In this document: positions 6,167 to 58,965 of the stretch, piece by piece
Layout of the letters: every line of letters starts with the position of its first letter
How positions within the stretch are numbered: position 1 is the stretch's first letter
Assembly (NCBI GenBank): GCA_045837725.1
Contig: JBEWZL010000061.1
Span: 1 to 64,000 of the forward strand
From: Vermamoeba vermiformis
Lineage: Eukaryota
Reading direction: 5' to 3'
Length of the DNA: 64,000 nucleotides
Program-made: the position numbers and the translations under genes
Notes under the pieces: model-generated
Seen by the model: the letters and a program-made list of their open reading frames with translations, nothing else
The model's database searches: none
Told to the model about the DNA's origin: nothing

Positions 6167-9100
6167 CTATGTTTTAGTCTCGTTAGAAGTACTCTTGTTC
6201 TTAGTCTGCTCGTCCTTCGAGCTTTGGTCAATGGACATGGCTTGTTGGATCAGCCACATCTGGTACGCTAACATTTGCTGATAATTAGCTAGTAGCGATG
6301 CCGGAATATTAGCGTGGTTATTAAGGGTGTTGGTATTGTTAGCTGGAATATTGACATTGGTGTTGTTGAAGGAAAGAACCGTGGCGTTGATCGGAGGTGG
6401 GTTAGGAGTAACATTGAGGTTGATGTTGATTGGTTGGTTTGTGTTCGATATTTCCTTATTAGGGATTGGTGTAGAGGGGGTGTCGGCCTTGTCGAATTTT
6501 AGTCGGTCTTGGTAGAAGTTGATCATTTTCTGGGGCGTTACAGTGGAGAGAAGTGACGAGGGAACAAAGCTATATTTAGCGTTGCCTGCAGCACGTGATT
6601 TTCTCTTTTTGGCAATGTCTTTTTCTTCTCGCCATCGCACTAAGTGCATTAACTCGCCATCGATAACCTTTGATCCAACAATCTGTTCGACTTCGAGCTT
6701 GTTGTCCAAACTTCTCCTGATCCGAACGCCTTCGTGCATTTCCTCCTAAAGTCATGTTTTAGTCACGGACTACAATGTCTAGTATAACTGTCACGTACCT
6801 CTGGTTTTTCTTTCAAACTGCTTTGAAATTCGTTCAGAGTTTCAGCAGCGAACAAAATTGTTTCGGATCTGTGTCGAAATGTTAGAGCTGAAGGGCTGTA
6901 CAATATAATAGGCACATGGTACATACGCAGCATTGTCACTCTTTAAAGTAACTTTATGGCTGACCTTCTCGTTGGTAGGTTGGGTCAAAGCCAAGATCTG
7001 ATCGGCAACGTACTCGACTTCGTAGCTGTACAAAATACAATACTATTAGTATCTTATATTGAATATGTATCATAATTTTCAACTTGCCTATCATCAGTTT
7101 CGTTGCTCGAAGGACTGGATGCGCTGCTTCTGTTTACATGTTGACACGTGTCAAAGTCCTCTGCTTCAGATTTCTTGGCTAATAACTGTGCAGGTGTCTC
7201 AAACTCGGCGTCCTCATGCGAGATAGCATCGCTTGTTTCATTAGTGATGAAGCTCAGCGAACCGGGCCTCGGCGAAGTTGACGGATCTGACGAGTCGGAG
7301 GGTTGAGACACCTTTTGCTTCTTAGTAATAACCTCTAATAGATCTCTAGAAGGCTTTCGCTTGAGTGTTCGATCAGATCCGTCACTAAAAATTCAATGTT
7401 AGATCATGACACGAGGGATCTAGATCTGACCAACTACGTACTGTCTTTCAAATTCTTTAGCGAGATGATATAGCATTGGATTGTCGTAGTTCGAGAGACC
7501 CCACCACACTTTGGCTTTACACTTGAAGATGTGTGTCTTGGCGACGAGTGATTCTTCGAGCAAGTTCGGGATCTGATCCTCCAACTCTGCCTTAGACTTT
7601 GAATAGCCCAGTGAGATCCAATTATTCGATAGGAATTCTTTGATTTGCTCGAAGTGGAAGTACGTTGTCGTCAAGCCATTGAATGTACTTTCGTTGTTCT
7701 TGACCAAGATCTCTTCGTGATGGACTTGGCCAGATGCGTTACTTTGGCTTCCTACTTGAGGGTTGCGTGATGCTTGGGACTCTTCTTTAAGATTGTACAG
7801 CGTCACTTGGAAGATGTGATCCCATTCACGAGGAAGGAACCTGAAAATCTCGCGTCGACGCGTGTTGAAGGTCTGTGGCGGAAGAACAGCCAGCACGTTA
7901 TGCTCGAGAATTTGCGGGGTTTCTTCGTCGGTGTCTTGCCGACAATTAGCGCAAATGAATTGGTAGCGCCAGTCGCCAGGCAACGGTGAGATGTTGAGCA
8001 CAATTGACAGGCAGCGTTGATGGAAATATTTCTCGCATCTTTGACAGCGCAAGTCGATTGGATCTCCAGCACGATTCGGCCCTGGTTGATCGCTGCCACA
8101 GTAGCAGTTGTACGTGATAGGGTACTTGGCAGTGTCTTCATTCAGCAGCAACGACAAGTCGTTAGAAATGCTGTCGGCGGCTGAGAACCCGGTGTGTCTT
8201 GTCGAGAACGACGGCGGCAACTCGAAAAGAATAGGCGTGTCATTGAACATGAGCCGCTTGTTCTTCAACATCATGGCGTCTGAGGAGCTAGCGAGTTTGA
8301 CACGCCAAATGTCACGGGCATAATTCAGTCGTGAAATTTCAATAGGAGCAATACGGAAGTGGCTAATGAGGAGCTGCACGACTTGTTGACGAACCATTTC
8401 TTCTGAGGCTGTTTTCGGGACTCCCTTGACCACCAGACAATTCGTCATGTCTGTTTCGTTCAACTCACGCTGCAAGATCTCGGGTTCACGTGGATGAAAC
8501 TGCAACGGCAGTTAGTACAAGTTAATACTATAAAATGATATGTCCTTACCAGTGTGTTGGTTGCAGAGTGGCCTGAAAGTCCGCATGTCGTGCACTTTCT
8601 GTCATCGTGTGACTTTAAGACAGCGTTACTTTGAGGACCAGGCTTCGTTACAACAATAGGAATGGTCGATATAACCTATACGAAGTTAGTATTTAAGAAT
8701 ATGGACGATACGCTTGTGAACTCACCGATTGGATCTTGGATGCGCTGCTGGCCAGCATTTTAGCGTTGTCGTCCCAGCACTTGGAACACATCTCGTTGAC
8801 TTTAGGTTTCGTCCTTTGCAGAACAATCAACGTGTCTCCGCTGTACGTGTTCGTGCCTTCAGTTCGCAGAGGATAAAACTTCATGGATCTAGTGCGAGTC
8901 GATTTGCAAAATGCACAGGCTCTACGAAGTGTGTCGGACTAAATAGATAAATGATTAGCTTTGGATCCCAAAGATTCTGAGATTCATGAACGATAAACCG
9001 ATTCGCGAATGAAATCTCCGAGATGAAACACACGACAAGAGCGTCAGAAGTGTGTCAAAAAGTGTCGTTGTCTCAAAGTCGAGCAGTGTATCGTAGCTTA

Positions 9101-9497
9101 CCATAATACGCTTGGCTGACTTCTTTTTCATCTTGAAGTCGTAGACCATGGAGTTGGGTCGAGTGCCTAGTTGGGGTTGAAGTGGCTGAATTGGTGTGGG
9201 TTTTACGATAGACTTTTGGACCTGTTGAAGTCGTGCTTGGAGGTCTGTAGGGAGTTGGAGGGGGATTGTCGAACTAGGGACATTCAGACCTTGTTTCGAG
9301 GTTGAGTTAGTCGTGGAGGGAAGTGGATGTGACACGAGTGTCGAGGCGATTGTAGAGGCTTGAGTGGGTTGGGAAACGGTTGTAGATGCTATAGAAGGTA
9401 GGAAAAAGCGCTGGAGTTGAGTTGGCACTGAGGAGTGCGCATAAATTGATTTAAACGCATCGTTGGATGCTGGATTCACTTCGTTTGCTCGGTTCAT
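6167..9497 (-). CDS. Multidomain chromatin protein: Zn fingers, RRM-like, Polycomb-like PHD + winged helix, degenerate chromo, chromo-shadow domain
   Basis: CAFC..CSKC; CTTCGLSGH; CLVVKGVP (RNP2-like); CYCG..CQRCEKYFHQRC..GDWRYQFICANC; LPREWDHIFQVTLYNL..YFHFEQIKEFLSNNW; LEVEQIVGSKVIDGELMHLVRW..PQKMINFYQDRL. GT-AG introns link the ORFs. Confidence 0.8.
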
Positions 9498-10424
9498 CAA
9501 TTTTTTGAGCTTTTTGTTCTTTCAGTCCACCGTGGCTTATGGCTGTGGTGTCCTGTAAGTAATAATGAGCTAGAGACCCAGAAGTTTATTTTTAGAGCGT
9601 GGGCGTAGATTTCGTGGGAATTTTGAACACGAAAATAACGCATCGCATAAACAAAATATAGCGGTCTTATTTATCGCCAATTTGTAATGAGGTTCGTGTA
9701 TTTTGACATCAATTAAAAGTATGCATCGTTATTTTAATGATTCATAAAAGGGGTTTTGGATTAATAATTGTTTATGGCTTGAATTAAATTATGTGAGTTT
9801 TGATATAGCCTCGGAGGCGTATATAATTGCTCATAGGTATTATTCCAACATTATTTTTATGATTTCAAGAATAAATAACTCTGAGAAAAGGTAAAGACAA
9901 TAGATTCGCGTTAATAATGGCATGTTGGCACTTACCTTGCAGCGAAGTTGTATAATAGCGCTATTTTGTATTGTAAATCAATAGTGTTTGGTTTTCTTTT
10001 GTGTCCTCATTCGACAAGTCACAATAAAAATGATTGTTCAGATAATTCTGACTAGATCTCGTTGAGCTCACGTTACAACGGCACGTGCACGGTTCGGAGG
10101 TTCTTACACACGATACTGTACTCCTATGAGACTTGCGTACCTGGTTAATCCTGAAGTTTGGGCATTATTTAATCTCGGATCATCTTCAATTGGCTTCAGA
10201 AACGATTCTATTAATATCAATGGTCTTGACTTCAATACTAAGTATTAAGAAAGTACAGGTATTCGCAGGTTATTTATTTACAAGCAAGAAACAAATATAT
10301 ACATACAGGAGTTTGTAACAAAAATGGGACTCAGTCCGAGCTCGTCCGTAATCTCCTTCGGAATTGATTGAGACTGCGGAGCGTAATAGAGGTTGGTGCG
10401 GAGTAGAAACAAAATTTAAATTGT

Positions 10425-24158: not shown

Positions 24159-26434
24159 TTATTTCATTCCTAACATTGAATTAACAGCGCGCAGATTAGA
24201 CACGAGGGCTGAATAGGATTAGTGTTAGTAAAGGTTGTTGATCGGATCTATTAATCGTTCAAACTTACATTGTACAGTAGCGGAAAATTGATTAGGCTGT
24301 TTCTTAAATACTTTATCGCGTTGTTCTAATACGAAGGGCATATTACGGCACTCAACTTCAATTTCGTAATTGACTTGATCTAACATCGAGCCTGAACTCT
24401 TTTGAAACTCTTTTCGGAAGCCTCTGGCATTCTTAGGCGCATTCTTCTCGTTCTATGTCACGTACAATATTAGCAAAATATTAATAAAAAAATAAAAAAA
24501 TTCGGTACAAAAATATTAACTAAAAAATTCCGATCCAAACGTTGATCTTTAGATCTAGATGCAGGCGGGGGAACAAAAAGCAAAAAGAAAAGAGCACAAC
24601 ACCTCCGATTCCCAGGTAGTCTCCTACCCCAGTACTAAGAAGGCCTGAACAAGCTTAACTTCGCTGATCGGACGGGAAGCGGTGCATTCTTGTTAGTGTG
24701 GTCGTGCCCGAGACGTTCAGCAGCATCGTGTTCGGGTCACTACTTACAACTAACAAGAACATCCGAATCGCAAAAGGCGCTTGGTACGTGGATGTGTTCC
24801 GGGGAACGAGACCGATTAATTGTAGTATTTATATTGAATTACTTACTGTTTTAACACTAGTGACGTCAAATTGCCATAGTGAGTACGCATATGAAATACG
24901 ATGTTTTTCTCGCTCATATTGTACTGGCGAGGTCAGATCCGGTACTATTCCATAATAAGTTAAGAAATTAATTGTAATTTAAATAAGAGCATGTCCATAC
25001 CTTTCTCTTCTATTGTAGCACTAATTCTAAAGTCTAAAATATTATTCGGACAATACACATCCAAGTTATCTAATCGAGTCTTCTTAATGCATCGGATCAG
25101 CTAAGTCAAGCTTAATTTAATACTTATGTACGATAAGACTATAATTCTTGCATACTTCTCCTTTATCATTGACCGTCCTTCGATTTTTAGTGCTGTCAAA
25201 CTGATCCGTTTCCTTTTGCACTTGATATTGCATTCTTGGTCCTTTGTAGGTCGGTTTCTTCGTTTCAGTGAATTTATTGTTCATTAACGTATTGAAACTC
25301 TTAAATATATCCTAAAAAGCGTTCTCGTAAGTAAAGCTCGATCCAGATCGGTTTTTGAATCCGTCTCATACAGCTTCTTTTCAATTATACTATTAACCAA
25401 CTATATCTATACTTACCAAATGTACATAAGATTCAAATCGGACTACTTGCGGGTTAACGCACGCTTCGTTCATAACTGATAGCAATTGTACATCCGTTAG
25501 AAAACATTTCAAATTCGTTTAGAGTAATAATAATTGTATAACTAATATACTGTAAGATGTTTTATAGCGCTATATACTCTTAAAACTTACTTGGAAGTCG
25601 GATGCGCTGATTTGACTGCTTGTCAATCACGAAGCCAAATTTCGCTTCAATTTCGACGTTAGGACGGTCGCCGTATTTGAAAATAAAGTCGCCGATGAGC
25701 TTAGTAATACTATCGACTGAAGAAGTTGGGAACTATTATAGCAAGCATAATTGAGTTGGAGAAAAGTAGCGGATCGGATCGACCCCGCAATACTCTTGTA
25801 ATTGTAAATTAAACGTTATAAAGGATACTATAGGCATTGATAGATATTTAACGATATCCTCGTTGCTATCTTGAGTTACTTCAGGTTTTGGTTGATTTTG
25901 AATTGGTGCTGAATTTTCCTTGTGGACATCTGACTTAGTCTCGACATTCTCTTTTGAATTCACACTTGTATTTTCATTTTCTATATTATTTTGATTGTTT
26001 TGGTGAGGTTGAGAGTGCTCTTCGTGTTGGTCAGAGTTCGTATTTGAGATTGGATCTTGAGAAATTATTTTATCTTGTTCCTGCGAGGTTCGAATATTTT
26101 CTTTTTGGTTGCTATAATCTTCATGTATAGTATTTGAATTATTTACAGTATCGGTTGATTTTTTAGAATTATTTGGGTGGTGTCCAAGCAGGATGGGCTT
26201 CTTTACATTAGCAACAGGTAAAGGAGGCAAATACTTCGGTGCATCGGCATCCTCTCGTTTATATAGTACACGTTGCGGTGCTGGTTGATCTTCGATTTTC
26301 TGCTTTTTAGTTTCAGGACCCTCTTCTTCGATCGAATCTACTTCTGCCAGCTTCCTCTTTTGAATATGATCGTCATTTTCAGTCGATTCGATAGGAATCT
26401 CTGTTGTAACGCCCTCAGATGTGTTTTCGCTCAT
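24159..26434 (-). CDS. CET1: mRNA-capping RNA 5'-triphosphatase (Cet1/Pct1-type triphosphate tunnel metalloenzyme), about 8 exons
   Basis: Spliced product contains DSITKLIGDFIF..NVEIEAKFGFVIDK..RIRLP (motif A), RFES, CIKKTRL..DFRISATIE, REKHRISY..WQFDVTSV, YEIEVE (motif B), LVSNLRAV. Low-complexity N-terminal extension. Confidence 0.92.
24575..24591 (-). terminator. Pol III oligo-T terminator of the 5S gene
   Basis: TTTTCTTTTTGCTTTTT immediately 3' of the 5S on the minus strand. Confidence 0.85.
24591..24709 (-). rRNA. 5S: 5S rRNA gene (119 nt), intronic
   Basis: GGGCACGACCACAC..CCCGTCCGATCAGCGAAGTTAAGC..TTAGTACTGGGGTAGGAGACTACCTGGGAATC..GTTGTGCTC. Helix I pairs, A/C-box-like internal promoter, followed by T-tracts. 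Confidence 0.97.
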
Positions 26435-26506
26435 TAAAAAAACAGTTTATTTAAAGTACAAGGTAAAAAAATATTTAATACGTTTGGATCGTCGGTCAAT
26501 CAGGGT

Positions 26507-29500
26507 TCATAGCTCCATTTTTTCTTCTTTAAGTACGGCATCATTTTTAACCTCTATTCTTTCAAGAATAAAGATAAACACGTCATAAGGTGAGTCTTCC
26601 ACGAAACGAACGGTACCTTCGTCGTTCGCTGGACGATACAAGGTCTTTGTTACTTGCCAAGTCACATTGTCAATAGTGACAGTGCTTTGCGTTGACTCTC
26701 CCATCTTGCAGATTGGCACCACAGCGAAGATCTTAACGAGATTGCACCGACCTCGAAGTCTCTTCAATACTGCTCCCAAGGCACTTGGAACAGCTAAATG
26801 AACCCGGTTAGTAGGCTATTTAAAAAATAGAACCTCAACGTACCAAAGTCAGAGCCCTCACTCAAGGCGTAAAAGTAGACCAGCTCGGTCTTGCTGCCAA
26901 TATCATTCGGTAATTCGCCTCGTTGTTGAATGAAGTTCGTGTTGCACAAATCGGGCAAATTGTTGCTCAAAAACAGTGTCGAAGGCGAGTTTTGACCGTC
27001 CAACCATGTTTGCAGGACTCCTCCTTTGTCTTCAGCTTCTCCAATAGAAATTTCCTTATTAGGCAAGTTCAGCCCCACAACCTCAACGAACGTCGGCAAC
27101 ACTGAAGCGACAAGTTAGATATCAGATATAAATAAGTTATAAGGTACCTTTAATCGTAGTGTTGGGAGTCCAATTCAGCTTCGTATGAATGAATTCGTTC
27201 ATTTTGATGACGTGCATATTGTTCTCAAAGCACAAGTTTTGAAAATCGATGTCTTCCATCACCGTTTTGCACGGGTACAAAACGCCGTTTTCGACCGTTA
27301 GCTTCGTGTTTAAATAGACGGCGCTGTACACAATGCGTTGTTGGAACGGAACTGACACGTTGAAAATTTGCATGTGCCAGCGACCCATGCCAACCAACGC
27401 AATTCGCGCAGGATCGAATCCATACAAACCCTCTGCCGATGTTACTTGTTCTGTTTGTTTGGTCACGGGGAAAGGTTGATTGATTATAGGGTCACCTCGT
27501 TGGTTAATCGTCAAAAATGATTGAGAAGCAGCAATCTTTTTAACAAGCTCGTTGGTCGGCTTGGCAACGCTCTACAAAGTAAAAGATTAATTAACCCTTC
27601 ACTTCGTTGTAGGTTGTCCATGTACGTGCCTCTAATCGCTTCATTGCCTCTTCGAAGTACACAGGCACCATTTTCTTAGAATTGAAATCGATTTTCCAAC
27701 AGCGTTGCACGTTGTCGTCCCAAACATGAATCCAGTGTAGCCCAAGATGATACGCAAAGACCTTATAGTTAACCGCAGTTAGTCCGAGATGTTCGAATAA
27801 TAACATAAGGCATACTTGAATGAATAATCTTGCGTAGCCGATGCCACCGGAGTTAGGATCTTCTTCTCGATCACCAACTGTCATCTTCTCGGGTAAACAA
27901 ACGATAATGCAATTGTTGCCCCACACCTATTATTAAAGAGTTAGAATATTCTAATGGTCAATTACAGTCCTACTTCTTTGTAGCGAGCGAAAGTTGATTC
28001 TCGGACTACCAAGAATTGGATAATATCGGGCAAGGGCTCTATGGACGTCGCATGTGTATAGTTACAAAGGGCTTTTTCTGCAATATTTTTCAGTTTTAAT
28101 CATATAATATTGTGATTTCCTACCTGGAATTGCCAAGCCTGACGACACGCGATAACTGGGCGTAAGTACAACGTGCACATCGTTAGACAAGTTCTTCTCG
28201 CAAATTGCTTTCCTATACGACAATGTTAAGCGGAAGACATAAGGTACCAAAGACATACCATTTATCAACGTGGAATTTAGTGTTCGGAATGGATAGTTGT
28301 ACGGTACTGCATTGCACTTTAGTATTTGCTGATATCGCAAAAGCCGGTAGCGTTGTCGTAATAGACGAAACATTGCGCATCCGCTGCCAAAGCTCGCATT
28401 TTTCGCATCCCTGGAAGCATACGACTTGCGATGGCATTGCTAACTTATACTTTGCAAGGCAGTTGATTGGCTTAACAGCTGTGTATTCTGCCTTCTCCCA
28501 AAGATCTTTTGATTCAATAGTCTGATTCCTTTTGAACGACAAGTTATAATTTAGTAACTTTTGTCTTGACAAGCATTATGCTATAACGTACTTGACGAGG
28601 GACAAATTATCATCACTAATTTTGTTACTTTTATGCGCCATCGTGAAAAAGTTGTCATAATTGATAAATTGAAATACCTAAAGAATGAATTAGATCTCAA
28701 TGATACGAGTGCAATTCGACCGTACGTTTGATGGTGCGGGAATGTCCTTATGCGCTATCGTTAAATTCTTAAGATTGTTCAACAAGCGCTTAGCCTCGTT
28801 GAGCGTAATTCGTTCATGAATCGTCACAGCGTCAATGAAGTGCTGTACGCAATTTTGAGTGTTTGCGCTGTCCTTTGTACTTTGATAAGCTTCATATAGT
28901 AGTCTCTTTCGCTTTGCTAGTAACACTGAATGATATTTGCCCCATGCCTGAGAAGGTTTGAGCATTTGGTTGGTACTATATATACTTGAGAGCTCTTACG
29001 TGTTCGTGGAACCGTTGTTTATCCAAAGGTGTCAAGTACTTCCAGTACGGCAACAAACAAGTGTCTTCGTTAACAGTGCTCTCGAACGTGCATAGCGGGG
29101 TCGGAACAATTTCTGTGCATCAGCGTTAATTCAACTCATTATCTGTCATCGACACGTACCAATTCCTTGAATTTCTTGCTTGAGGAGTTCCCAGAAACGA
29201 AGATAGGCCTCCGTTTTACCGATCTATCAATTGCGATTAGCTAACTAATAAAGTAACTGTAAAAACTTACCTGCGGTTCTGCCATCAATAGCAACCGGTT
29301 TTTATGCTTCTCTGTCGCGCCAAAGTCCATGCTACGATCCTTCTCCTTGTCACTATTTCGGGCGTTGTAACGTCTTCTCCAGTTGAAAGGTGCGTAGCCA
29401 ACATTAATAGTCAGGGTGCCCTCGGTCATGCTAACAATATGTCAGTATAATGAAAGTGGTAAGAGAATGCTTAGCCGCGTACTATGAGTCCAAAGTCATG

Positions 29501-32500
29501 TTCGCGAAGTGCTCAGCAGAGGCTGAAATTCCATCAGAATGCACTGGCTGGAGGGATTTGTGCAGTGCTTTACTGACGAGGGAGTAAGGTAAAGGCTCGT
29601 GCGGCAAGTCTGCATAGCGGCACATGCGACCCAATTCCTGGAAACATCGTAAGTATCAGGGGTACTTTTGTCCTAATATCTTACCTGAACTGCGCTGCTG
29701 ACAGTACCGGGACCTCTACGATGTCGAATTCGTAAGTCCAGGCAGTCCATTGACTTCGGAAAAGTGTCGCCAAGACGTCCCTTTGACACCAATATCAACA
29801 GCACGGGAATGGACCCCAAATCTTTTATCGAATTAATAACATTGCACTGAAACGAGTTATTACTGTACCTTCGTATGACTCAAGTTTACGGTGAACATGT
29901 CCACAGTTGTTGCAGTATCGATTGTTGTTCGGGTCATACTTGGGACATGAGCATTGGCTCACCGACTTTGACGAATAACAGCACATTGATTTACTTTGCA
30001 GCAAATTGAAGAATTCGATTGACAGATCGTTCTTGATGTTGAACGTGCTAAAGTCGGGGCAAATGGCGAACAGGTTATGCCTGATTAAAAGTTAGGCAAT
30101 CTCTATTTTAAAGTAAAGCGTACGTACCACTCCAGTTTACCACGTAGCCATTTCAGTTTCTTGACGAAATCTTCGCCTGATAGCATTTTCCGTTGTCTAG
30201 TCGGAGTATCGCTACCAATGCGAATCAGCTTCATCGTGCCTTGTTGCAGATGTGCTTTTTCCAAGAACGACAGAACGGCTGGTAATAGTTAGACGACAAT
30301 AATAACAACTACTATCGTCGCTTACTTTTGTCGGTCTCAGTCCACAAGTGGTTGTGCTGGCCCTTGTTCTGCATGGCACGGAACTTCTCGGCACAAAAAT
30401 TAGCAAAGTCAGCACTGTTGGTGGGAGCCTCCATCTCTTTGCCAATGCTTTTGCCGTAATATAATGCAGCCACGCGATGAAGCAGCCCAATGTTATTCGT
30501 GTAAAGCGATTTCGTAACGTCTATATTATGTTAGTTAACAACTACTGGCGTGATATTTATCCGTACCATTAAGCAATGTTTCAGCTAATTCTTGCAACTT
30601 ATTTGAGATTTTCGTGTCCCAGAGTTCGTTCCACTCAGCCTCAGACGTAGGAATACAAATCACCCGATCAAATTCGAAGAATTTCTTGAAGAATAACATG
30701 CTGAAAGCGTAGTCAGCCAACAACGTAGCTTGCTCGTCGCCCAGCTCGTCGCAAAGTTGTTCGAAGATATCGTCACTTCTAATACTTGATTGGGCCTTCA
30801 AGAAATAATCTAGGCCGTAGTACTGCTTGCCCTCTGCGCAGACAATAATAATTAATATTTTTCAAGCGGAAGATTCCGCGCGTACCTGAATAGCCTTCAT
30901 TGTCATTGACTCCAGACTGTTTGAAAGCAGCGATAGTTGAGGACCAGTCTACAATATGATGTTCTCCTTCGACGAAGTCCAGTCGATCCACTTGAACTTT
31001 GAACTCTTGTCCTCCTGCTCTTGGAGAAACAGTAACATCTTTTGTAGCCGGATCATAACTGTGCACCACAACTTCCATTTCGGAGTCCTTCAACCGGTAC
31101 ACCTCTGGCAACCTGTACGATTATTAGTCTTGCAACTTCAGTCCACTGCTCATTCTTACCTCGATTGCTTCGTTAAAATATTGTACGGCGTTGCTGTAAC
31201 TTGAAGCACGAAGAAATTGTCCCGAATAAGCAGATCGGGGTAATTCACGTACTCGGAGTTAGCTCCTTTTGCGTTATAGCCCCAATGGGCTTCATCCGCA
31301 ATGAGCACGAACAAGCACTTGTCATCTTTACGTACTAAACCAAGATGTTAGTAGCCGTATTAGTCGCGTCGATTTAAAACTACCTCGCTCTCTAAACTCG
31401 CGATAGGGTTGATCGTTTTTGTTCTCATTAACGTTGTACAGCCAAACAGGAACATTATTACTCGTTTCATCGTACAGACCAAAGTCTTTGATTCTTTTCA
31501 ATGTCTGTTCCTTTAACGTCGTGTAATTGGCGGTCTGAGTAGTTGGCGAGGTCAATAAAGAATACATGTATATTCTTCGCATCTACGTACTGCTACGCAA
31601 ACTTCAAGCTTGTCGAACTTCTTGATGTTCGCGCTTATGATTTTTTTAAATTTGTCGAACAATTTGCGGCCAATGACGTTTTGATCTCGGTACATTCTCG
31701 GGCGGGGTTTCTCTTCTTTCTATATAACTTGTAAGAACCACCTTGAAATCCTTGACACGACAATACGTACCGGTGTAACATCTTTCATGTCAGGCGCTGG
31801 TGGACGAAGATTTGGGGCTTTAATCGTGACACTGAGGTGATTGTCATCGACGACCTCTTTTTCGGCGATTTTGAAATCAAAAGCAACCTCAGCGTCTTGT
31901 ATAATCTTCGCACTTCGTGCTTCTTCACGAACAAGATCTGCCAACTCTAGCGAGCGAATCTCGGAGGCCAAATCTTTCGCTAAAATTGGGGAGGTTGTGG
32001 TCAAAGAGTAGATTAAATCATCATCGTCCGCTCCATATATTGACACAGTGATCGTTGTCGGCGGCGCATTTGTTTCCGTAGTATCGACAACAGCTGTTAC
32101 TCAAATTAGCAAAGTCTTTCTCATGCACTTTGTACGTACTTTCTTCCTCAATGTATATTCTATCAGCTTCATTCCGAACGATGACAACTATGTCCACGGG
32201 ATCCAAGCAGATTATCCAAACATTTTGCTCTCGGTTGAGTGATTGGAAGGCACCAGATGTAAGCAACGATTCAAATGCCCCAGCATTCTCGATGACGAAC
32301 AGCCCGAAAGTGTCACTGTAAATTCTTGTCTGTGGAAAGTCGATGCCTTGGACGTATTTCAAGAACTGTTTGCGGTCCTCGGGTGGAAGTTGATTGACGG
32401 ATCGGTACCACTGATCGACTTGAGCTAATAGTTCTTGCTTCATTGTAAGATCCTCCAAGCTCTGAATAGAAAAGCCTGATTTCTTGGCGACGCCATTCAA

Positions 32501-33137
32501 CGAGGCAATAACCATAAGACAGAGCTTGAAGTATTGTTCGGAGCGGTCCAGGTCGATCGAGATAGGCTTCAAAAGTTTCGGGTTGTAGAACTTGACCGGC
32601 TGTCCAAGTAACCTCGTACAATCAGCATTGAAATTGTCGGAAAAGACAACGCAGTGCAACGTGTTATCGATACTCGACTGCGAGTTGGATGAGACACTTG
32701 GCGGGGAAACGTCAAGTTTCGGTTTTTTAGTGGAACCTTCTCTCTCCTATCATTGCATTTGTAAAAATTATTGTATAGTAGCGATCAAACTTACACCAGA
32801 AGCCTTTCGCTTTTTCGAGGATGGAGAATCCGCCGCAGGCGGAGTATTGTTTGTATTGTTGTTAACCGCTTGGCTTTCTTTTTTTCTTTCTTTAGCCTGT
32901 AGAGCATACCTCTTTGTCGTAATATGTTTCTCTTCCAGCCCGGGAAACATTGCAATCATTTTCTTCTCGATATCATTTTTCGATAATCCTTCTTTCAATA
33001 AGGCCTTTAGAGCTTCCTCTTCCTATAGAAATATGCGTTAATGGGAGAGGCAAAAAAGAATCGATGACACTTACTGCTTCGGTCCAATAGTGCCTCGACC
33101 CTTCTTTCTTTTTGTCTTTTTCAGGTTTCTCGGCCAT
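26507..33137 (-). CDS. GREB1-like protein: Myb/SANT-like N-terminus, circularly permuted SF2 ATPase, TAGT/JGT-type glycosyltransferase; many exons
   Basis: RHYWTEAEEEALKAL; LIADEAHWG; QVTATPYN; SKGRLGDTFPKSMDCLDLRI..QELGRMCRY; RLLLMAEPQ^IGKTEAYLRF; VLTPSYR; LVVRES..YKE.WGNNCIIVCLP..GGIGYAR..IHVWDDN. These match remembered GREB1 motifs GETFPRSL..DLRL, RLLLSGPPQIGKTGAY and GVGAA..ISDD. Confidence 0.88.
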
Positions 33138-33578: not shown

Positions 33579-35818
33579 ATGAAAGTCAGTATTTGTATAG
33601 TACTTACTTTAGTTTTATCCTGCTTATTGAACTTCGTGGCAGGTAAGCAAAAAGATACTCTCCATTATCAGCTTACTTACTTTTATGTTATTGTAGCCTC
33701 AAAAGCAGATGATATTCGGGCATTCGATGAGTGGTATCAAGGTAATAACCTGTTTTAATTCATTTATTTAATTTTTAAAGATTTTTCGAACGTTGTTCAC
33801 GGGATCCTGCAGGAAATAATTCAGTAACAAGTAAATAATAATGTTTATTCAATTTTAGGCATAAATCATAATGAAAAAGTTCGCTTGGAGATGATCGATG
33901 ACGAGCCTGGATTTATCGCGACCGGAAATCTGCTTCACGTAAGCCCTTTTGTCCCTAAAATAACTTGATATCGATACCAAAAATAGCTTATAATATAAAT
34001 ACCGCAAATTTAACAAATATTTGTACTCAGAGTGAGATGGCGCTTATAACTCCTTATGAAGTTTTCATTTCGTCAGAAACTGTAAGTAAACCAAACCATA
34101 ATTATATAAATAGCATTCATATTGCTGTAAAGCTTAATTTTACAATAATAATGCGTATCGATACGCATCCGGATTCGTGACGTGTCAATCGGAAACTCGC
34201 TTTCTAAAAGTTATTTCTGCTCGTGTAGGTTGAAAATGACGCAGTATTAGGAGATGTTATAGAAGATATTTATGACGAGAACGAGGATGATCAGTTGAAG
34301 CCAGTTCAATTGGATGCGCTCTACGTTTACTATCTCTACCACAAATTCTGCGATAAAGATCCAAAATTTATGTGGAGATTATATTTTAAAGCCTTACCTG
34401 ACCATTATGATACGACCTTATTCTTCAGCAAGGAAGATATCGAGCAACTGAAAGGATCTGTTATTTACGGTAAGTCTTAACTCTTCAATTTTTTAAATAA
34501 GGCAAGCTAATAATGGTATTATATAGAGGCCGCTATTGAAGAAAGAAAATTCGTCGATGAAAAATTCCAATACTTGAAGGAAAAGTTGTTCGATGTAAGC
34601 ACTTTTAGGGGCATAAAATCGTCCCGTAAAAACTAAGTATTACCAAATATAGAAAAATCCTGAAGTATTCGGCGAGTGCAAGCCTACTTTGCAACAATTT
34701 AAGTGGAGTTACGCGACAGTAACGGCGCGCAAGGTCGATTTGGTGCACGCGAACAAAAATACCAAAAAAGAACGAAAATTCGTTGCTGTGGCTCCGTACT
34801 TTGATTTTATGCGCCATTATCCTTTCCCAAAGGTACATAATCACCCATACTATACTTATTAATATATCTAATACTCACATATTAATACTAAAAGGTTGAA
34901 TGGGGCTACAGTGCTTCAACTTCAACTTTGCATTGCGAAGCCCACGAGAACGTTCGCAAAGGTCAAGAAGTGTTCAGATTGTACGACGAACTGTCAAACT
35001 CTGAACTGCTCAAACAACAAGGTACATCACCGAGACACGAGGGTCATATTAATACCAGGTCCTAATTATTCGTGTTGTAGGTTACATTCTCGAAGAAAAT
35101 TCATACAATGCAGTGTTGTTCGATCACGATCTGTTTGTCGTTGACAAAAAAGATCCCGAGCACGAGAAGAAACAACAAGCCGTCAACGAGAAATTAAAGT
35201 ACGTACTCAAAAATTTTTAATATCGAACCAGTATTATATGATAGACTTTACCAAGCAAGCGATCATTTTTTATGAAATTGTGGTTGTATTTTCTATCGTA
35301 GTAATTTTTTTTTCCAAATTAGGCAAGTGAAATATTTGCGATTGCTCGATGGAGGCCTGTCCCAAGAACTATTTGACATTGCAAAAACCATCGGAGGCAA
35401 GTCCGATAAGAGCAGCGATTCAGTGGACACGATGTACCATGCATTTATGTTCTTGGAGAAGTTGTGCGAAAGAAAATTGAGCCAATATCCGACCACTCTT
35501 GAGGTACGACTTTTGACACCTGGATCTGTCAACCCAAATGTCAAATTGGTTTGATATTTATAACATTATATCAAGCCCTGAGATACTACCTAAATATGCC
35601 AATGATACTAATATGGGTCGTATTAGGAAGATGAAAAGTTCTTTGAAAGTGATGCATTCGAAGAGTTAACCTCGCGAGCCAAAAACGCGCGAACGGTCGT
35701 CATGGAAGAGAAAAAGATTCTGACGACGATGAAAGAAGAATTCAATACTTTGGCACGCAAGAAATTAAACGAGGCCAAGAAGCGAGGTATTGCCATTGAT
35801 CTGAAGGATGAATTGTAA
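33579..35818 (+). CDS. SETD3/Rubisco-LSMT-like SET-domain protein with signal peptide and C-terminal KDEL, multi-exon
   Basis: MKVSICIVLTLVLSCLLNFVA; WRLYFKALP..FSKEDIEQLKGS; FKWSYATV; PYFDFMRH; KGQEVFRLY..SNSELL; LSQYPTTLE; ends IDLKDEL*. Confidence 0.88.
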
Positions 35819-49735: not shown

Positions 49736-52700
49736 ATGTCGCTCTTCCAACAAAAGCAGCATTGGACGATTTTGGGTTGCTTACTCTTACTTCTCGCACT
49801 GAATTATTCAGCAGCGATGGATGTAACCGAATCTGACATTACTTTTTCTTCTCAGCTTATTGAGGTGAGTAAGCGTTGTATAGTTATTTTCCCGAATGCG
49901 ACTTCTTCATCTTTTTATTATGACTGGTCTGATTTATTTTGTAGACGCAATTAGTGTTCAGAAAAGATTCAAGCCGTTCCGCAAGTCAAGGCATCGGTCT
50001 GAGTGTATCTCTGAGTGGTCCAGGAGCACCTCAGATCAATCCAGAGGATGTATTGTACAAGAATGGAGGTTCAATCGAAGTTCGACCGGTAAGTTGTTTA
50101 TGGTTTCGGCTGTGTTGATTACGCTCGTTCTGACGAACACTTTACAGACTCAATCAGGCATCAGTGATGCGAACAAAATCAACGGTCATTCATCTTTTGT
50201 CGTGCTCACGTTGCTTGGCATCGCAGGGTTGTGTCTTGGACCAAAATTCAAGTCACCAATGACAGGTAACGTGCTCGAAATCTGTGTAGTGTGGTCGATC
50301 TAACTGGATTGTAGGAGTGCTATTTATATCTCTCGCGCTTCTTTTAAGCACAGTCATCTCACTGCAAGACTTCTCCGCTGACTGGACACTTGAAGTGGTT
50401 GCTACAGTCCCCGAGTCATTCACACTGCAATCACTGACCATTAACATGATGCGTGGCAGTGTTCGCACAGACGGTGATATTGGCATGGAGATCAACAACC
50501 TTCGCATCGACTTGTGTAATGCTGGTGAAAACTCCGTCGCGCTTGATGGCTTGAAGCTTAGTCAGTCGGCTTCCGTTTGCGCAACAGACGCAGTCACGTT
50601 GAGCAACCTTCAACTGACTGATGGCTCGTCGGTGGATGTTACATCGCTTGGAGGCTCAGCCACAGTTTCATCCAAGGTACGATGGACCGCGTCCATCTAA
50701 GGGTTAAATTTTACTGACACTATCTATCTTTAGAACGTTGCATTCAGTGGCTCATTCAATGTCTCATCTGGCGCAGGCTCGGCGGTTGCATCGGCTTGTA
50801 CATCACCTTCACTCACAATGAAGTCCGCTCAATTGCTTGTTGGCTCGTGTGGTACTCAACAACCTTTCGTATCAGTTCGTGCACACAGCGATGCCCTGTT
50901 TGCTGCTGAGGATACGTCAGTACCAGCAGGAGCAAAACAATGGTCAGATCCGTCAACATGGGGCGGAGAGCTTCCAAAAGACGGGCAAGCAGTCACTATC
51001 GCTGAAGCCGACACTATCCTTCTCGACACAACAACAGCGTCACTTGGCAACCTTGACATTCGAGGCACACTTATGGCAGATCCATCGAGTGACTTCTGGC
51101 TGATGGCAGATAGTATCAATGTGTATGGCACGCTTCGTGTTGGATGGCTCTCATCACCTTACACCCGTAACGGACGAATCACTCTCACTGGCGAGAAAAA
51201 GGGCAACTACACTCGCCGTGCTGCACCATTGCTTGCGTTCAGCAACGATGGAGTGTCACGTGGTCTTCGAGCACACAACGGCTCTACTCTCGAATTGCAC
51301 GGAGCACCAAGAACCATGTACACACGCCTGAACGATCACGCTGCACAAAACGATACTGTTCTCACTCTGGACTCAGTCGATGGATGGAATGTTGGCGATG
51401 AGATTGTCATATCACCTACTACATTCGTGACCACTAGTCAATCAGACAATCGTCGCATTGTTGCAATCGACCGAGAAGCAAGAAAAGTGACCATAGATTC
51501 GGGCTTGTCCTTTGCACGATGGGGCAAGCTTCAATATGTGACAGATCAAGGTCTCAGTCTGACACCAGGTGTGTTCCAAGAGCTCAAAGCACATCCTGAT
51601 GTCGCCGATGTTCTGGACGAGCGCGCAGTTGTGATTCATTTGACACGCAACATTGTGATCGAAGCACCAAACGACACTCACTGGCAACAAGGACATGGAG
51701 TTCATGTGATGTGGATGGGAGTGTCAACACGAGTTCATCTGAACGGTGTCGAAGTACATCGATGTGGACAAGCAGGAGCACTTGGAAGGTATCCACTTCA
51801 TGCCCACATGCAAAGCTACAACTTGCCCAATGGCCCCACTGAACCAAGCGATGGCACATTATTAGGCGATGTTGATGTATTTGTTCGCAACTGTGCGGTT
51901 CATGAAAGTGTCAACCGAGCGATTGTCATTCACGGCACATGTGGAGCACAATACGTGAACAACGTTGCATTTGACATTCTCGGTCATGCATACTTCTTTG
52001 AAGATGGCTCAGAGGTGCGCAACGACTTTATTGGCAATGTGGTTCTCAACGTGCGTGCTCCCATCAAAGAGAATCAGATACTGTTGACCGAGAGCTTTGT
52101 TGGATCAAGTGGCATCTGGTTCTCGAACGGCAACAATCGCCTCCGTGACAACATTGTCGGAGATGTACGTAACGGTGTTGGTGTATGGAACGCTTTTGCT
52201 CGAAAGCAACCACCTTCGTACGTGGATATTGTCACTCCAGGCGGCATTACCTTCCAGAATGTAAGCACGGAGGAGTGGCGCAGACGTCACAATCCCATGC
52301 CTGAGTCATGGACTTTCACCGCACGAAACGCCACTCATTGGTCAGCCGTTGGTTCACGAAGTGGCGCCCAGCCTGACCTCGTTACGGGAACGATGTACGA
52401 CAACGGTATTCTCACTGGATTCATGCTTAGTGGAACTGCCAGTGCAGGCGCCAAAGTGACATTCAGAGTTGATGGCTATGTTGGTGGTTGCTTTGGTCTA
52501 AGTCGCAATGTCAAATTATTCCCTCAGTTTACACCAACGCTCGACTACTTCAACAACACTGCCTTCTCTTGTTTTGCGTCAGGATTTATGACTGATTTCG
52601 CTGTCACAGACGAGATTGGCAATGTCGAGAGTTACAAGTTCATCACAACCAACGATTCACTCCCTGGTGAAGACCATAACAATCCACGACGCGTTTTCAC

Positions 52701-53949
52701 AACGTTCGTTCGTCATCGCTTTTGGATGAACAATGGCGGTGGCTATACCAACAGATTGTATCAGCCGCACTACATTGGATGGATTGGCGCTGATAACTAT
52801 GGCACAGATCTTCGAGGAGCCACTCAGATTGGCAAGATCGAACAAGGATTGTTCATTGGTCACTCGTTGAACAATCTCGAACCCCAGATCTTCACAAGAG
52901 CTCGACACGCTTTTGCGACCTACCACTTCTCGTTAGACTTTCATGACATGGTGATTATGAACTATCCTCCGCTGCCACGTCGAGACGTATTTATCGAACG
53001 AAAGCTGCTTGACATGCCTGGTGCTGTCGAGTCTTGGGACTTGTACTTGAATTCAGTCGAAATGGGATCGTACAAACTTCACAACTGGAAGCAGTTTAAC
53101 GTCACGTAAGTCCATTCAAATAATAGAAAGATTTTCTCGTTGACTATAACGAGGCCGAGCTCTAACTTAATCTTATTCAGTCAATTCGAACGCACCCCGC
53201 CACCAAACATCGAATACCTTTACCCATACAACGCTGGAGGTCCTGATGTTGATCAACGCTATTGGACGTTTTCAGGTGCGATGTTCGACAATGAAGGTAT
53301 TTTGGCAGGAAGACACGGCGACTACATTCTGTTCAATCACACATTCTTGACCTATGGCCTTTCGAACATTCGTCGCGTAGGCACACCAGAGTCCCTGACT
53401 GTTGCCACAAGTGACGTGTTCTATGGTTTGAAAGTGGGTGACGCTGACACTCGTGATGCATTCAACGATGCAGTGACGTTTGTGCGACTTAACAATAACT
53501 TCCAGTACGTCGCCAACTGGTCAATTGAAAACGGCCACAAAGCACAGATGCTGCCTAACATGCGTCACGCGTCAATTCTGAAAGGAGGCATCTATCGCGT
53601 GTACAATCAGGATATTACAACTCCGAACTCGCAGATCTATCAGCTGCTTGTATCCAACGCTAACAATGACAACGACACATTCATTGTTGGATTCCCTTGG
53701 GCAGCTAGTGCTCCAGTAATGATCTTATCGGGCCGTGCTGCGATCAATCCTGCTACCGGCCTTCCCTATGATGGTGAGATAACTTTGGGCTGGCAAGTTA
53801 TTGCCACAGAAGTGAGCTCACGCAATGCAATGACGACAACTCCACGAAGCTGGTGGCGCGACACAGCAACAAATCAGATCTGGTTCCATCATCGGGGTGG
53901 ATTCCCAGTCGATGGTAATCTGCATATTTATGCTCGACCTCCTGTATAA
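49736..53949 (+). CDS. Large secreted G8-domain + beta-helix protein (CEMIP/TMEM2/fibrocystin-like core)
   Basis: Signal peptide; G8 WSDPSTWGGELPKDG..ILLD..L.IRGTL; WNVGDEIVISPT; DERAVV..LTRNIVI; GQAGALGRYPLHAH; ESVNRAIVIHGT; GHAYFFEDGSE. Confidence 0.9.
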
Positions 53950-56367: not shown

Positions 56368-58681
56368 TCAGTTGAAAGTAAGGAACAACAGCGCGGTGAC
56401 TAAAATTGATAGCACACCACGATATTCGAATTGAGTCGCTGCAGTGCTAACTCCAGAGGGAGATCTGCTTGCGACCGGCGTAGTAGCAGTGTAGGGAGGA
56501 GAAGTGACTGGTCCGGGCACTGAAACGATTTCTGCATCAATTCGTTAGTACTTATTTGCGGATTAATAGTAGTCACTTACTCGCTGGAGTGACAGACCAA
56601 ACCGGATGTGGATTAAAATTTTGTTTCATTTCGGGCCAGTTGGTCGCATTAACCATTCTGAAATATGATTCAACAGCACCAGGTACTCCTAATTGCACGG
56701 CATACGCGATAGCAGGCTGAAGATTGCCCCACATACTTTTCACCCAAGATCCAATGTCATACTCGGCACTCAGTACTCCTTCTTGTGTGCTCAGCCAAGT
56801 CGGTGGCGTAGCGAATGTGGCAGCGTAAACAGCGGACCAATCAGCGAGCCAGGGACCCGCGCCTGTTTGGAAGTTGGGAATGTCGACGCTTGAGACCTTA
56901 ATCGTGTACGGAGCTCCGTTGATGTACCAGAAGCCAGTGGACGGTCCTAATCTGCCTACAATAGTCTTAGCCTTCCATTGGAAGAATTCCATGGCTTTTT
57001 GGTTGTCTGGATCCGACACTGGCAGATCGAGCGAGATCGCGTGACCCCAAGCAGCCGTAACAAAGTCTTGTTGCCATACAGCCACAACACTCGTGGCCTC
57101 GCCGCCATTGCCGTTGCTATATGCTTCTCCAGGCTGAATAAGTCCAAAGTCGTTGTTTTTTTGCTGGATGTACTTGGCGTGGTGGAACCGGATGTTGCTC
57201 TCCCAGCTCGCTTTGAAGTTGTTGCGATAGTCGTCCGCATCAGGAGTGACTGAATATGCTTGGGCGAGGGCTCTGATCATCCATGCTGAAGAACGAGTCT
57301 GCACGGCACCAACGACTGAATGCAAAATGCCAGAGCTGAAATTTCGCACGATTTCGCTGTCAGTGAGGCCCAAGTAGTTGGTGGTGGCTGCGAACTGCAC
57401 TTGTTCCATGAACAGCCAGCGGCCAGTGACTAAATAAGCCAAGTAGCCTACTGACGGTGAGTGTGCAGGGTCCCATTTAGGAGCTGCAGTTCCGTTACAG
57501 CGCGGAGTGATGTCGTACTTGGTCGAGGCACCATTGTTGTGGTATCGGCACGTGTCATCAATGACCAAATTAGGATAGTCGCTGAATCGAAGAGGTTTCA
57601 GCGTATTTTCATCGCGCCAAATCAGCGGATAACGACCAGCACTGTAGCCATTGAACACGATGCCTTTGTAGACTATACTGGCGTTAACGGAGGTCAAATA
57701 TGCCACGTCGTGCTCGGGAAGCATGCCAATGGGCCGCTGATAGCCAGGTGAAGGCATTGAATCGTAGTCGTAGTCGAAGTTGCCTTGCTGTAAGGGCACA
57801 AAAGAGCGAACTAAACGGATCAGCGCTCCTTGACCCGCATCAGCATCGGCAAAGTATGACGGAACAAGCAGTGAGGCTTGCATGTAGATCGTGTCGTGGT
57901 GGACTGTAACGGCAGGATCTGTTGCACCGAACCAATAAGAAAGAGCTGTTCCTGATAATAGAGGAGTGCGTGTATGGGTAGGAAGATCGATGAAACTGGT
58001 GAAGAGAGAGTCACCACCCAATTGGAAGTTGAAATTGGCGGTTTTGTTGGTCGGATTGGGAACGCGGATGTAGCCGTTTTCGATCCAAGGAAGAACTTCG
58101 ACCGCTCCTCCTTTGTAAAGTCGCACGTCTAACCAAGCAACGAGATGAGGGTCATTTCCAACAGGCTTGCGGTAAATCCAGTTCGACATCTGCCAGCCCG
58201 AAATCCATTCCAAGTGAGGAGAGTCCCAATCAGCATTTTGCCACGAAACACTTCCATAGCTCTCACAGTCTATCGCTGCAGTAAGACCAGTGGCCTTCAA
58301 ATCGCTAAGCGTGAGAGGAGAACCGTTCGGGTCACTCGTGGATGGACCAAGGGTCACAACCAACGGAGAGTCTGCTGTAAGAGCTGCATGGCCAGAAATT
58401 ATGGCATATTTTAATGAGCCATCTGACCAATAGTTTTTCGGCACGACTTGCATTTCGGCTAGATTTGAAGCAGCAACGTTTTGACCAGATGCGACGTGGC
58501 CCTTGACGAAAGAGAAGCCCAACGTGAATGGTGCGCTGCCAGTAACAGGACTAAGCAGCGCAAAAGACATCGAGCCAGTGGGAGATGGCACGGCTACGGC
58601 GGAGTACGTCGTGTTGAGACATGAAACGGATGTTGACAGCGAGCAAAAAAATGCCGCGCACAAAACAAGTCCAAGGTACAT
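56368..58681 (-). CDS. Secreted, GPI-like-anchored protein with a bacterial-like core (N-terminus resembles PcRGLX/YetA-type lyase barrel); exons 58681-56581, 56531-56368
   Basis: Signal peptide; PFTLGFSF.KG..KNYWSDGSLKYAIISG; WDPAHSPSVGYLAYLVTG; VWQQDF. A 49-nt intron adds ..PVASRSPSGVSTAATQFEYRGVLSILVTALLFLTFN*. Confidence 0.75.
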
Positions 58682-58965
58682 GTTGTTGAATGATATGAAT
58701 ATGTTAAAAAAAATAACTCTTCGCGTATTGACAACTTGTTAAAGGTAGCTGAGGTCCCCTATTTGTCCCGTGCTGATTTTGGTCAGAAAGATACGCGAAT
58801 CTTTGACGTGCGTTGCTGAAAGCAAGACAACATATTAGGCAGCAGCATTCCTACGTGAGAAACAGAGGAGTAGAGACGTGTGTCAAGGTAGGCCAGCGGA
58901 CATTCAAATGTGAGACTTTGTTTATCATCGTTTTGTTCGAACAAACGCTCAACTATTATTATAGT

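What the first reader, a model, noticed from the sequence alone, without database searches (positions are those of the whole stretch)
26507..33137. GREB1/JGT-like Myb-ATPase-glycosyltransferase with intact permuted SF2 motifs: candidate DNA base glycosylation system
Seen: the motif order is DEAH (about 31290), TAT, QELGRMCR (motif VI, about 29630), then Walker A AEPQ^IGKT (about 29210-29280), so the SF2 ATPase is circularly permuted. A glycosyltransferase with WDD follows (about 27700-28200), plus an extra C-terminal region. There is also an N-terminal Myb-like helix and a Cys/His insert (CSC..CNNCGH). Established: GREB1-family TAGT domains are related to the kinetoplastid base J glucosyltransferase that acts on hydroxymethyl-pyrimidines. 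Inference: the Walker A/B and motif VI residues look catalytically complete, unlike my recollection of animal GREB1. This could be a DNA-targeted ATP-dependent enzyme that glycosylates oxidised bases in a lineage where base J-like marks may not be described. No TET/JBP partner is visible in this window.
Basis: partly seen in the sequence, partly recalled or inferred. Interest (0 to 1): 0.85.

Follow-up and report, generated by a model that had tools for sequence, protein, structure and literature searches.

The report
Protist GREB1-like helicase-glycosyltransferase gene
This is a real, spliced protist gene for a relative of the animal protein GREB1, an apparently working ATP-driven motor joined to a sugar-transferring enzyme; it is a new member of a known family, and whether it puts sugar on DNA bases or on proteins is still untested.

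Summary
Observation confirmed. The minus strand 33137-26507 splices into one 1779-aa frame (27 exons). Spliced public contigs support 12 of 26 introns; a 73%-identical ortholog shares 5 of 5 introns it covers. Exons hit Pfam cpSF2-GREB1 and, weakly, TAGT; the transferase scores 195 bits on a homolog profile. Walker A lies behind motif VI. The intact ATPase is not special: Planoprotostelium, Guillardia, Hondaea, Naegleria and the annelid Owenia have it too. New details: an unpermuted sister family in giant-virus contigs, and evidence that only the strand/P-loop/helix unit moved while the Q-motif helix stayed in front, so the change is not a strict circular permutation. Homolog transferases match a phage DNA glucosyltransferase family, but the one tested family member, human GREB1, glycosylates protein. 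No TET/JBP among 262 window ORFs; no genome is held. The Myb label is unsupported. The scan has noted this family before on other DNA. Verdict: new member of a known family; DNA-base glycosylation about 40%.

The parts
26507..33137 (-). GREB1-like gene, 27 exons, 26 introns of 46-63 nt (25 GT-AG, one GC-AG at 27629-27572), 1779 aa
   Evidence: Open spliced frame; 12 of 26 introns seen as joints in public contigs X1/X2; 5 of 5 covered introns shared in place and phase with ortholog L072
32900..33092 (-). N-terminal helical segment aa 16-62, Myb/HTH-like by eye only
   Evidence: Sequence; no Pfam or PDB hit on exon 2: inconclusive
32717..32815 (-). Basic clusters KKRK and KKPK (aa 91-107), possible nuclear localisation signal
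   Evidence: Sequence; function inferred
32141..32662 (-). Alpha/beta region aa 126-299 of unknown family
   Evidence: No homolog among fetched sequences; Atlas blank; single-sequence model pLDDT 42, best Z 4.1
31639..31695 (-). Q-motif-like helix (YxxQ, Q420), left in front of RecA1
   Evidence: Q in 22 of 23 rows of one alignment, 17 of 23 homologs in another; aligns to the helix before Walker A of the unpermuted viral family
31109..31638 (-). RecA1 without its first strand: motif Ia-like strand, Walker B DEAH (31296-31285), motif III TAT
   Evidence: PF20692 76.6 bits; alignments
30274..31108 (-). Largely helical insertion between the RecA domains (aa 561-790)
   Evidence: 93 of 151 residues identical in L072; helical in the homolog model
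29608..30273 (-). RecA2 with motif V (GRLGDTFP) and motif VI (QELGRMCR)
   Evidence: PF20692 47.5 bits; 53 of 56 residues identical in L072 around V-VI
29891..29983 (-). Cys/His insert CxC...CxxCxH inside RecA2, likely zinc-binding
   Evidence: Full set in 9 of 23 homologs incl. Owenia, P0096-P0100; metal binding inferred
29164..29303 (-). Relocated strand/P-loop/helix unit with Walker A AEPQIGKT
   Evidence: PF20692 positions 653-705; matches residues 57-86 of the unpermuted viral family
28182..29104 (-). Linker aa 1085-1322, poorly conserved apart from a PYW...GKY motif
   Evidence: Alignment consensus; introns 28725-28678 and 28258-28213 seen spliced
27167..28175 (-). TAGT-type GT-A glycosyltransferase: R1333, D1428-D1429-N1430, E1563-D1564, F1567
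   Evidence: 195 bits on a profile of 15 homolog domains, best shuffled 6.3 bits of 200 shuffles; PF20691 15.5 and 13.9 bits on two separate pieces, under the 27.5 cut-off
26510..27148 (-). C-terminal region aa 1599-1779, spliced and expressed, family unknown
   Evidence: Both introns seen as joints; no Pfam, PDB or Atlas hit

Best explanation
One polypeptide couples an ATP-hydrolysing SF2 motor to a GT-A glycosyltransferase. Shown here: the gene, its splicing, the complete ATPase motif set (Q, I, Ia-like, II, III, V, VI), the complete transferase motif set and the family. Inferred: the relocated Walker A unit folds back into RecA1 and restores a normal ATP site; the motor binds or moves along double-stranded nucleic acid, probably in the nucleus; the transferase then moves a hexose or HexNAc from a UDP-sugar to a hydroxyl on a modified base (hydroxymethyl-uracil or -cytosine, or a sugar already on such a base), giving a base-J-like mark. 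The hydroxymethyl group would have to come from a dioxygenase elsewhere in the genome or from foreign DNA.
For: Homolog transferase domains match phrog_842, beta-glucosyl-HMC-alpha-glucosyltransferase, in 4 of 7 full-length GREB1-like homologs scanned (best E 4.9e-8). A homolog model matches phage TET-associated glycosyltransferases (Foldseek probability about 1.0, E 2e-3 to 5e-2). The R...DDD...EDY/F motif given for phage DNA GT-A enzymes and JGT (bioRxiv 2023.12.21.572611, passages) is present as R1333...DDN...EDIDF. The motor's best structural neighbours are DNA or RNA translocases (6jde Z 9.5, rmsd 5.0, 302 aligned; FANCM Z 9.1, rmsd 4.0, 311 aligned). The Walker A strand and helix are modelled at pLDDT 81-95. 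One homolog carries a bromodomain. An ATP-driven motor makes most sense with a polymeric nucleic-acid substrate (inference).
Against: Human GREB1, the only assayed member I found, O-GlcNAcylates a protein (PMC7968844, passages). A 2024 review says base J seems absent from other protozoa and metazoa (PMC11065753, passage). No TET/JBP in 262 window ORFs or in 58 ORFs scanned in homolog loci, and the genome could not be searched. The third Asp of the DNA-type DDD is Asn here and in 14 of 15 homologs. No PDB match reached E 0.001; the top rows were RIG-I/Dicer-like RNA helicases and protein/glycan transferases such as B3GalT5. The model is of a homolog (L003), not of this protein.
Confidence: 0.4

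Rival explanations
1. Protein O-glycosyltransferase, as for human GREB1: the motor docks the enzyme on chromatin or an RNP, or gates it, and the sugar goes to Ser/Thr of a protein.
For: Human GREB1 transfers GlcNAc to ER-alpha, and its mutated residues R1553, D1645, D1646, R1737, D1742 have counterparts by spacing at R1333, D1428, D1429, K1559, D1564 (spacing only; no human sequence was aligned). Fringe-like protein/glycan transferases are the best PDB matches of the domain. No dioxygenase partner was seen. Intact forms occur in an annelid, where no glycosylated DNA base is known to me (recalled).
Against: Human GREB1 is described as having a dead helicase, so its protein activity may be derived; this protein keeps every ATPase motif. 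The nearest viral family is a DNA transferase.
Confidence: 0.3
2. Conflict or innate-immunity effector: the SF2 part senses foreign nucleic acid and switches on the transferase against a viral or host target.
For: Homologs carry varied fused domains: caspase, bromodomain, EF-hand, ankyrin, OTU, or a SAM methyltransferase in place of TAGT. Planoprotostelium and Hondaea records hold two tandem units, Guillardia two paralogs; several assemblies hold two or three distinct copies (metagenomes may mix species). The motor's unpermuted sisters lie in giant-virus contigs. RIG-I-like helicases top the Foldseek list, weakly.
Against: This copy sits among housekeeping genes (mRNA triphosphatase 72 nt downstream), has 26 introns and a conserved ortholog, and groups loosely with the amoebozoan Planoprotostelium (SH-aLRT 89, quick tree): all fit vertical inheritance. 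A preprint on protist antiviral responses has no passage on GREB, TAGT or glycosylation.
Confidence: 0.2
3. Two neighbouring genes or a partly dead protein: ATPase and transferase are separate transcripts, or one half is only a scaffold.
For: No public contig bridges about 28870-29305. Genes here are tightly packed (72 nt to the next start). The linker is poorly conserved and 9 of 10 listed strain differences in it change the residue. Intron 28591-28529 has a weak acceptor and no support.
Against: The frame is open through the linker with canonical introns, two linker introns are spliced, and intronless homologs carry both domains in one ORF (L003, L013, L071). Both catalytic sets are complete.
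Confidence: 0.1

Closest known systems
GREB1-like proteins of protists and invertebrates (PF20692 cpSF2-GREB1 + PF20691 TAGT): Planoprotostelium PRP75493.1, Guillardia EKX34931.1, Hondaea GBG30820.1, Naegleria lovaniensis KAG2386909.1, Owenia CAH1787208.1
   Same: Domain order, motif order II-III-V-VI-I, intact catalytic residues, DDN and ED motifs; Cys/His insert shared with Owenia and others. Best hit Planoprotostelium, 442 bits.
   Different: Own N-terminal 410 aa and C-terminal 180 aa without homologs among fetched sequences; single unit, not tandem. None of these proteins has an assay that I could find.
Human GREB1 / GREB1L
   Same: Described as permuted SF2 followed by a Fringe-like TAGT domain (PMC7968844).
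   Different: Its helicase is described as catalytically inactive, it has an N-terminal Zn-binding domain, and it O-GlcNAcylates ER-alpha. No human sequence was retrieved, so no direct alignment.
Kinetoplastid JGT and phage TET-associated / glucosyl-HMC glucosyltransferases (PF20691, phrog_842)
   Same: GT-A fold and R...DD...ED motif; profile and structure matches through homologs.
   Different: DDN instead of DDD; fused to a motor; no JBP/TET partner seen. Those enzymes act beside a dioxygenase or on already glucosylated hmC.
Unpermuted SF2 family of giant-virus contigs (L002 ORF 9956-11611 and relatives)
   Same: Same A-x-P-Q-x-G-K-T Walker A, DECH, SATP and YxxQ helix; profile-profile probability 96.7 and 95.2 for the two pieces in native order, 99.6 when the unit is put back.
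   Different: Walker A precedes Walker B in 96 of 96 proteins with both motifs (of 116) and 70 of 72 viral loci (2 lack a motif); about 550 aa, no insertion, no transferase; no TAGT-profile hit among 885 ORFs in these loci.

Membership tests
cpSF2-GREB1 (PF20692) | Profile match above the curated cut-off | tested here: met
   76.6 and 47.5 bits on two single exons, cut-off 26.2
cpSF2-GREB1 (PF20692) | Walker A placed after motif VI | tested here: met
   aa 1057 versus aa 955; profile positions 653-705 of 716
cpSF2-GREB1 (PF20692) | Strictly circular order (everything before motif Ia moved to the end) | tested here: not met
   The Q-motif-like helix stays in front in this protein and its homologs: score 164.6 with the helix in place, 145.5 without, 147.5 +- 0.7 for 60 column shuffles, 0 of 60 reaching the real score. 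Holds for the family, so it refines the label and does not exclude this protein. Cut points were chosen by eye.
TAGT (PF20691) | Pfam score above cut-off 27.5 | tested here: inconclusive
   Only separate pieces could be scanned: 15.5 and 13.9 bits. The spliced domain scores 195 bits on a profile of 15 homolog domains; 7 of 27 long homologs pass the TAGT cut-off and 2 more hit below it
TAGT (PF20691) | GT-A active-site motif R...DD(D)...ED | tested here: met
   R1333, D1428, D1429, N1430, E1563, D1564, F1567; both D in 15 of 15 homologs; motif
TAGT (PF20691) | GT-A fold | tested here: met
   On the homolog model only: phage TAGTs; 5ggf Z 8.4, rmsd 4.4, 178 aligned
Base J / TET-TAGT DNA glycosylation pathway | TET/JBP dioxygenase in the same genome or neighbourhood | tested here: inconclusive
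   None in 262 window ORFs or 58 ORFs of homolog loci; no genome held; the PF12851 search reached one unrelated MAG and its control did not ring
Base J / TET-TAGT DNA glycosylation pathway | Glycosylated base in DNA; transfer to hm-pyrimidine DNA | not testable with these tools
   Needs LC-MS/MS and enzyme assay
Active SF2 ATPase | Q motif, GKT, DExH, motif III, V and VI residues | tested here: met
   Q420, DEAH 514, TAT 547, G927-D928, Q955-G958-R959-R962, G1062-K1063-T1064
Active SF2 ATPase | Nucleic-acid-stimulated ATP hydrolysis | not testable with these tools
   Needs assay
Vertebrate GREB1 (protein O-GlcNAc transferase) | Catalytically inactive helicase | tested here: not met
   Motifs complete here against the description in PMC7968844
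Myb/SANT domain | Three-helix repeat with regularly spaced tryptophans; profile match | tested here: inconclusive
   Only the first W is present; exon 2 has no Pfam or PDB hit; joined segment not scanned

The most novel reading that the evidence does not exclude
Protist GREB1-like proteins are the ancestral, ATP-driven form of the family: a motor taken from a viral SF2 family, rearranged by moving only its P-loop unit, and fused to a phage-type DNA glucosyltransferase. They write a glycosylated base on DNA outside Euglenozoa, either on the cell's own chromatin or on incoming hydroxymethylated or glucosylated viral DNA as a defence; vertebrate GREB1 would be a derived form that lost the motor and turned to proteins.
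Probability: 0.3. Interest if true: 0.85.

Novelty: new member of a known kind. Interest (0 to 1): 0.38.

Why it matters
Base J is the classic glycosylated DNA base of eukaryotes and is reported only from kinetoplastids and close relatives. A widespread family of motor-coupled transferases of the DNA-modifying type in amoebae, heteroloboseans, cryptophytes, stramenopiles and some invertebrates raises the question of an overlooked glyco-DNA mark and of how GREB1 arose. This gene poses that question no better than the Naegleria, Guillardia or Planoprotostelium genes already on record, which is why the score is moderate.

Tried and rejected
No genome is held, so the TET/JBP search stopped at the window. 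First automatic gene model over-called introns and was replaced by a curated one. Word-index search with the Walker B exon found nothing. No run on record as RNA holds the stretch; raw RNA runs X4 and X6 gave 2 and 3 reads under 90% alike, so they say nothing. Viral scans for the permuted form found none: 0 of 12, 0 of 11 and 0 of 4 candidates; one scan gave only the unpermuted L002. Phage tblastn: no match in 4 of 4 queries. So the split phage form of earlier notes was not reproduced. Prokaryote genomes: 0 of 16 candidates and 1 of 20 (L001, a lone MAG contig with ankyrin repeats, probably a stray eukaryotic contig, not checked). PDB sequence searches: no real hit. ESM Atlas blank for two exons. 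My by-eye ideas of a decayed P-loop domain at aa 126-299 and a decayed methyltransferase fold at aa 1600-1779 got no support (model pLDDT 42, best Z 4.1). Strain differences: 13 synonymous, 22 not, of the 35 listed inside the gene (40 rows shown, 22 more hidden), against 21% expected, p 0.023, weak; two pairs share a codon and were scored singly, which produced one false stop. The careful tree did not finish; the quick one is used. Iyer et al. 2013 (NAR 41:7635), which defined the family, is not held: I saw only citing passages and cannot say whether it already describes intact protist forms, the viral relatives or the retained Q helix. NCBIfam gave nothing useful.
Full report
Source and gene. 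The window is from an intron-rich microbial eukaryote; no genome is held. On the minus strand, ATG 33137 to TGA 26507 splices into 27 exons and an open frame of 1779 aa, with introns of 46-63 nt, 25 GT-AG and one GC-AG. Public contigs of two runs (RNA by guess, 90-99% alike, so other strains) show 13 joints; 12 match 12 different introns of the model, including the GC-AG one, and the thirteenth is an imprecise reading of one of them. A metagenome contig, L072, encodes an ortholog 73% identical over 329 aligned residues with all 5 introns it covers at the same residue and phase. No contig bridges about 28870-29305, so the join of motor and transferase rests on the open frame and on intronless homologs that carry both in one ORF.

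Observation. Single exons hit PF20692 cpSF2-GREB1 at 76.6 and 47.5 bits, and the two exons that share Walker A map to positions 653-705 of the 716-position profile. PF20691 TAGT gives only 15.5 and 13.9 bits on separate pieces, but the spliced domain scores 195 bits on a profile of 15 homolog domains against at most 6.3 bits for 200 shuffles. The Myb-like helix has only the first tryptophan and no tool support; the joined segment could not be scanned.

Family. A full HMMER search with the Walker B exon gave 76 proteins. All 27 long ones that I scanned hit PF20692; 9 of 27 also hit TAGT, 7 above cut-off. Named ones come from Planoprotostelium (best hit), Guillardia, Hondaea, Naegleria, Owenia, Willaertia, Heterococcus, Gefionella and Phalansterium. 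In 23 homologs long enough to hold both Walker motifs, D, E, H of motif II, G, K, T of motif I and Q, G of motif VI are present in 23 of 23 and the first Arg of motif VI in 22 of 23. This count is partly circular: the query was an intact exon and the 23 were picked for having both motifs, so decayed forms could not enter. The very high PF20692 scores of Planoprotostelium (887 bits), Hondaea (732) and Guillardia (675) suggest that such proteins shaped the Pfam model (inference). A quick tree puts the window's protein with Planoprotostelium at SH-aLRT 89, weak support for an amoebozoan source.

The rearrangement. A scan of viral contigs gave L002, a 145-kb contig with two NCLDV major capsid genes nearby, whose 551-aa ORF has the same AEPQxGKT ahead of DECH. 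It belongs to a family of at least 116 proteins; 96 of 96 with both motifs have Walker A first, and 72 viral loci were fetched, many labelled GVMAG, most often beside capsid genes (17 loci), three in a phage-like replication cluster. Profile-profile alignment finds the two pieces in swapped order (probability 96.7 and 95.2). It also shows that the YxxQ helix at the front of the eukaryotic domain (Q420) matches the helix that precedes Walker A in the viral family. Putting the P-loop unit back behind that helix scores 168.6, against 145.9 for a strictly circular order; in the control 164.6 against 147.5 +- 0.7, with 0 of 60 shuffles reaching it. So only the strand/P-loop/helix unit moved, and the ATP site keeps its Q-motif glutamine. 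Cut points were chosen by eye and coordinates of the model could not be inspected.

Structure. The spliced protein could not be folded, so a 1071-aa stretch of the intronless homolog L003 was folded with 55 rows: pLDDT 68.8, pTM 0.63, Walker A strand and helix at 81-95. Foldseek gave no PDB match at E 0.001; top rows were Dicer/RIG-I-like helicases and the Fringe-like B3GalT5. Among viral models the transferase matched phage TET-associated glycosyltransferases. The wide structural search gave SF2 translocases (6jde Z 9.5, FANCM Z 9.1) and GT-A enzymes near Z 8; these are middling scores that show fold, not function.

Substrate. For DNA: 4 of 7 full-length homologs match phrog_842, a phage glucosyl-HMC glucosyltransferase family; the motif described for phage DNA GT-A enzymes and JGT is kept with Asn for the third Asp; the motor is complete; basic clusters lie at aa 91-107. 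Against: human GREB1 O-GlcNAcylates a protein; base J is said to be absent from other protozoa and metazoa; no TET/JBP in 262 window ORFs, in 58 ORFs of homolog loci, and no TAGT beside the unpermuted viral genes (0 of 885 ORFs). Varied fusions and duplications among homologs keep a conflict role open, though this copy looks vertically inherited. I put DNA-base glycosylation at 0.4, protein glycosylation at 0.3, a sensor-effector role at 0.2, a split or half-dead gene at 0.1.

Literature seen. PMC7968844: passages, methods passage and supplement legends; the alignment figure itself is not held. PMC6163654, PMC4111573, PMC7824862, PMC3417536, PMC11065753, bioRxiv 2023.12.21.572611 and 2026.10.11.758280: passages only. 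Other papers: search listings only. Iyer et al. 2013: not held, known only through citing passages; it or its supplement may already cover intact protist forms and viral relatives. Nine searches found no assay of a protist GREB1-like protein; only 2 papers hold both GREB1 and TAGT. Motif names for SF2 helicases (Q, I, Ia, II, III, V, VI) are from my own knowledge.

Earlier notes of this scan describe the same family in two other eukaryotic windows and a split helicase-plus-TAGT pair in two giant phages. They are unchecked leads; my searches did not recover the phage form.

Verdict. Real, expressed, catalytically complete-looking member of a described family with an untested substrate. Novelty: new member of a known kind. 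Interest 0.38; 0.85 if base glycosylation of DNA were shown.

Noticed in passing
L002:9956-11611 and L077-L148: A family of unpermuted SF2 proteins, sisters of the GREB1 motor, mainly in giant-virus contigs (often near major capsid genes) and in a few phage-like replication clusters (L145-L148); no PHROG, NCBIfam or GenBank phage match for the one tested.
   Followed up: partly
window 27629-27572 (-): A GC-AG intron, confirmed by a spliced contig, among otherwise GT-AG introns.
   Followed up: yes
window about 25580-26434 (-): mRNA triphosphatase gene (PF02940) starts only 72 nt after the stop of the GREB1-like gene, with AATAAA at 26451 between them.
   Followed up: partly
window about 34229-35140 (+): Divergently oriented gene that looks by eye like a SET-domain methyltransferase; no Pfam hit on the single exons.
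   Followed up: no
window 6170-9520 (-): Gene or genes with chromo shadow and PHD domains, an HP1-like chromatin protein.
   Followed up: no
window 40518-40906 (-): JmjC/Cupin_8 2-oxoglutarate oxygenase exons; not of the TET/JBP family.
   Followed up: partly
window 44461-45420 (+): Histone H3 with a divergent N-terminal tail, possibly a variant.
   Followed up: no
window 48002-49100 (+): Fic/DOC domain gene in a eukaryote.
   Followed up: no
window 50734-53946 (+), 56576-58738 (-), 58969-62475 (-): Intron-poor, higher-GC genes: G8 plus CEMIP beta-helix protein, a PcRGLX-like protein of bacterial look, and a duplicated secreted-protein gene; possible lateral gains.
   Followed up: no
P0056 (and P0087-P0089): A cpSF2-GREB1 motor fused to a SAM-dependent methyltransferase instead of TAGT, so the motor can carry a different modifying enzyme.
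   Followed up: partly
P0096-P0099, L005, L013, L016, L017: Intronless 2200-aa intact GREB1-like proteins with ankyrin repeats on contigs up to 535 kb, grouping with Owenia; host not determined.
   Followed up: partly
L001 (CBDDTI010000316.1): GREB1-like ORF with TAGT and ankyrin repeats in a contig filed under a bacterial MAG; probably misbinned eukaryotic DNA.
   Followed up: no
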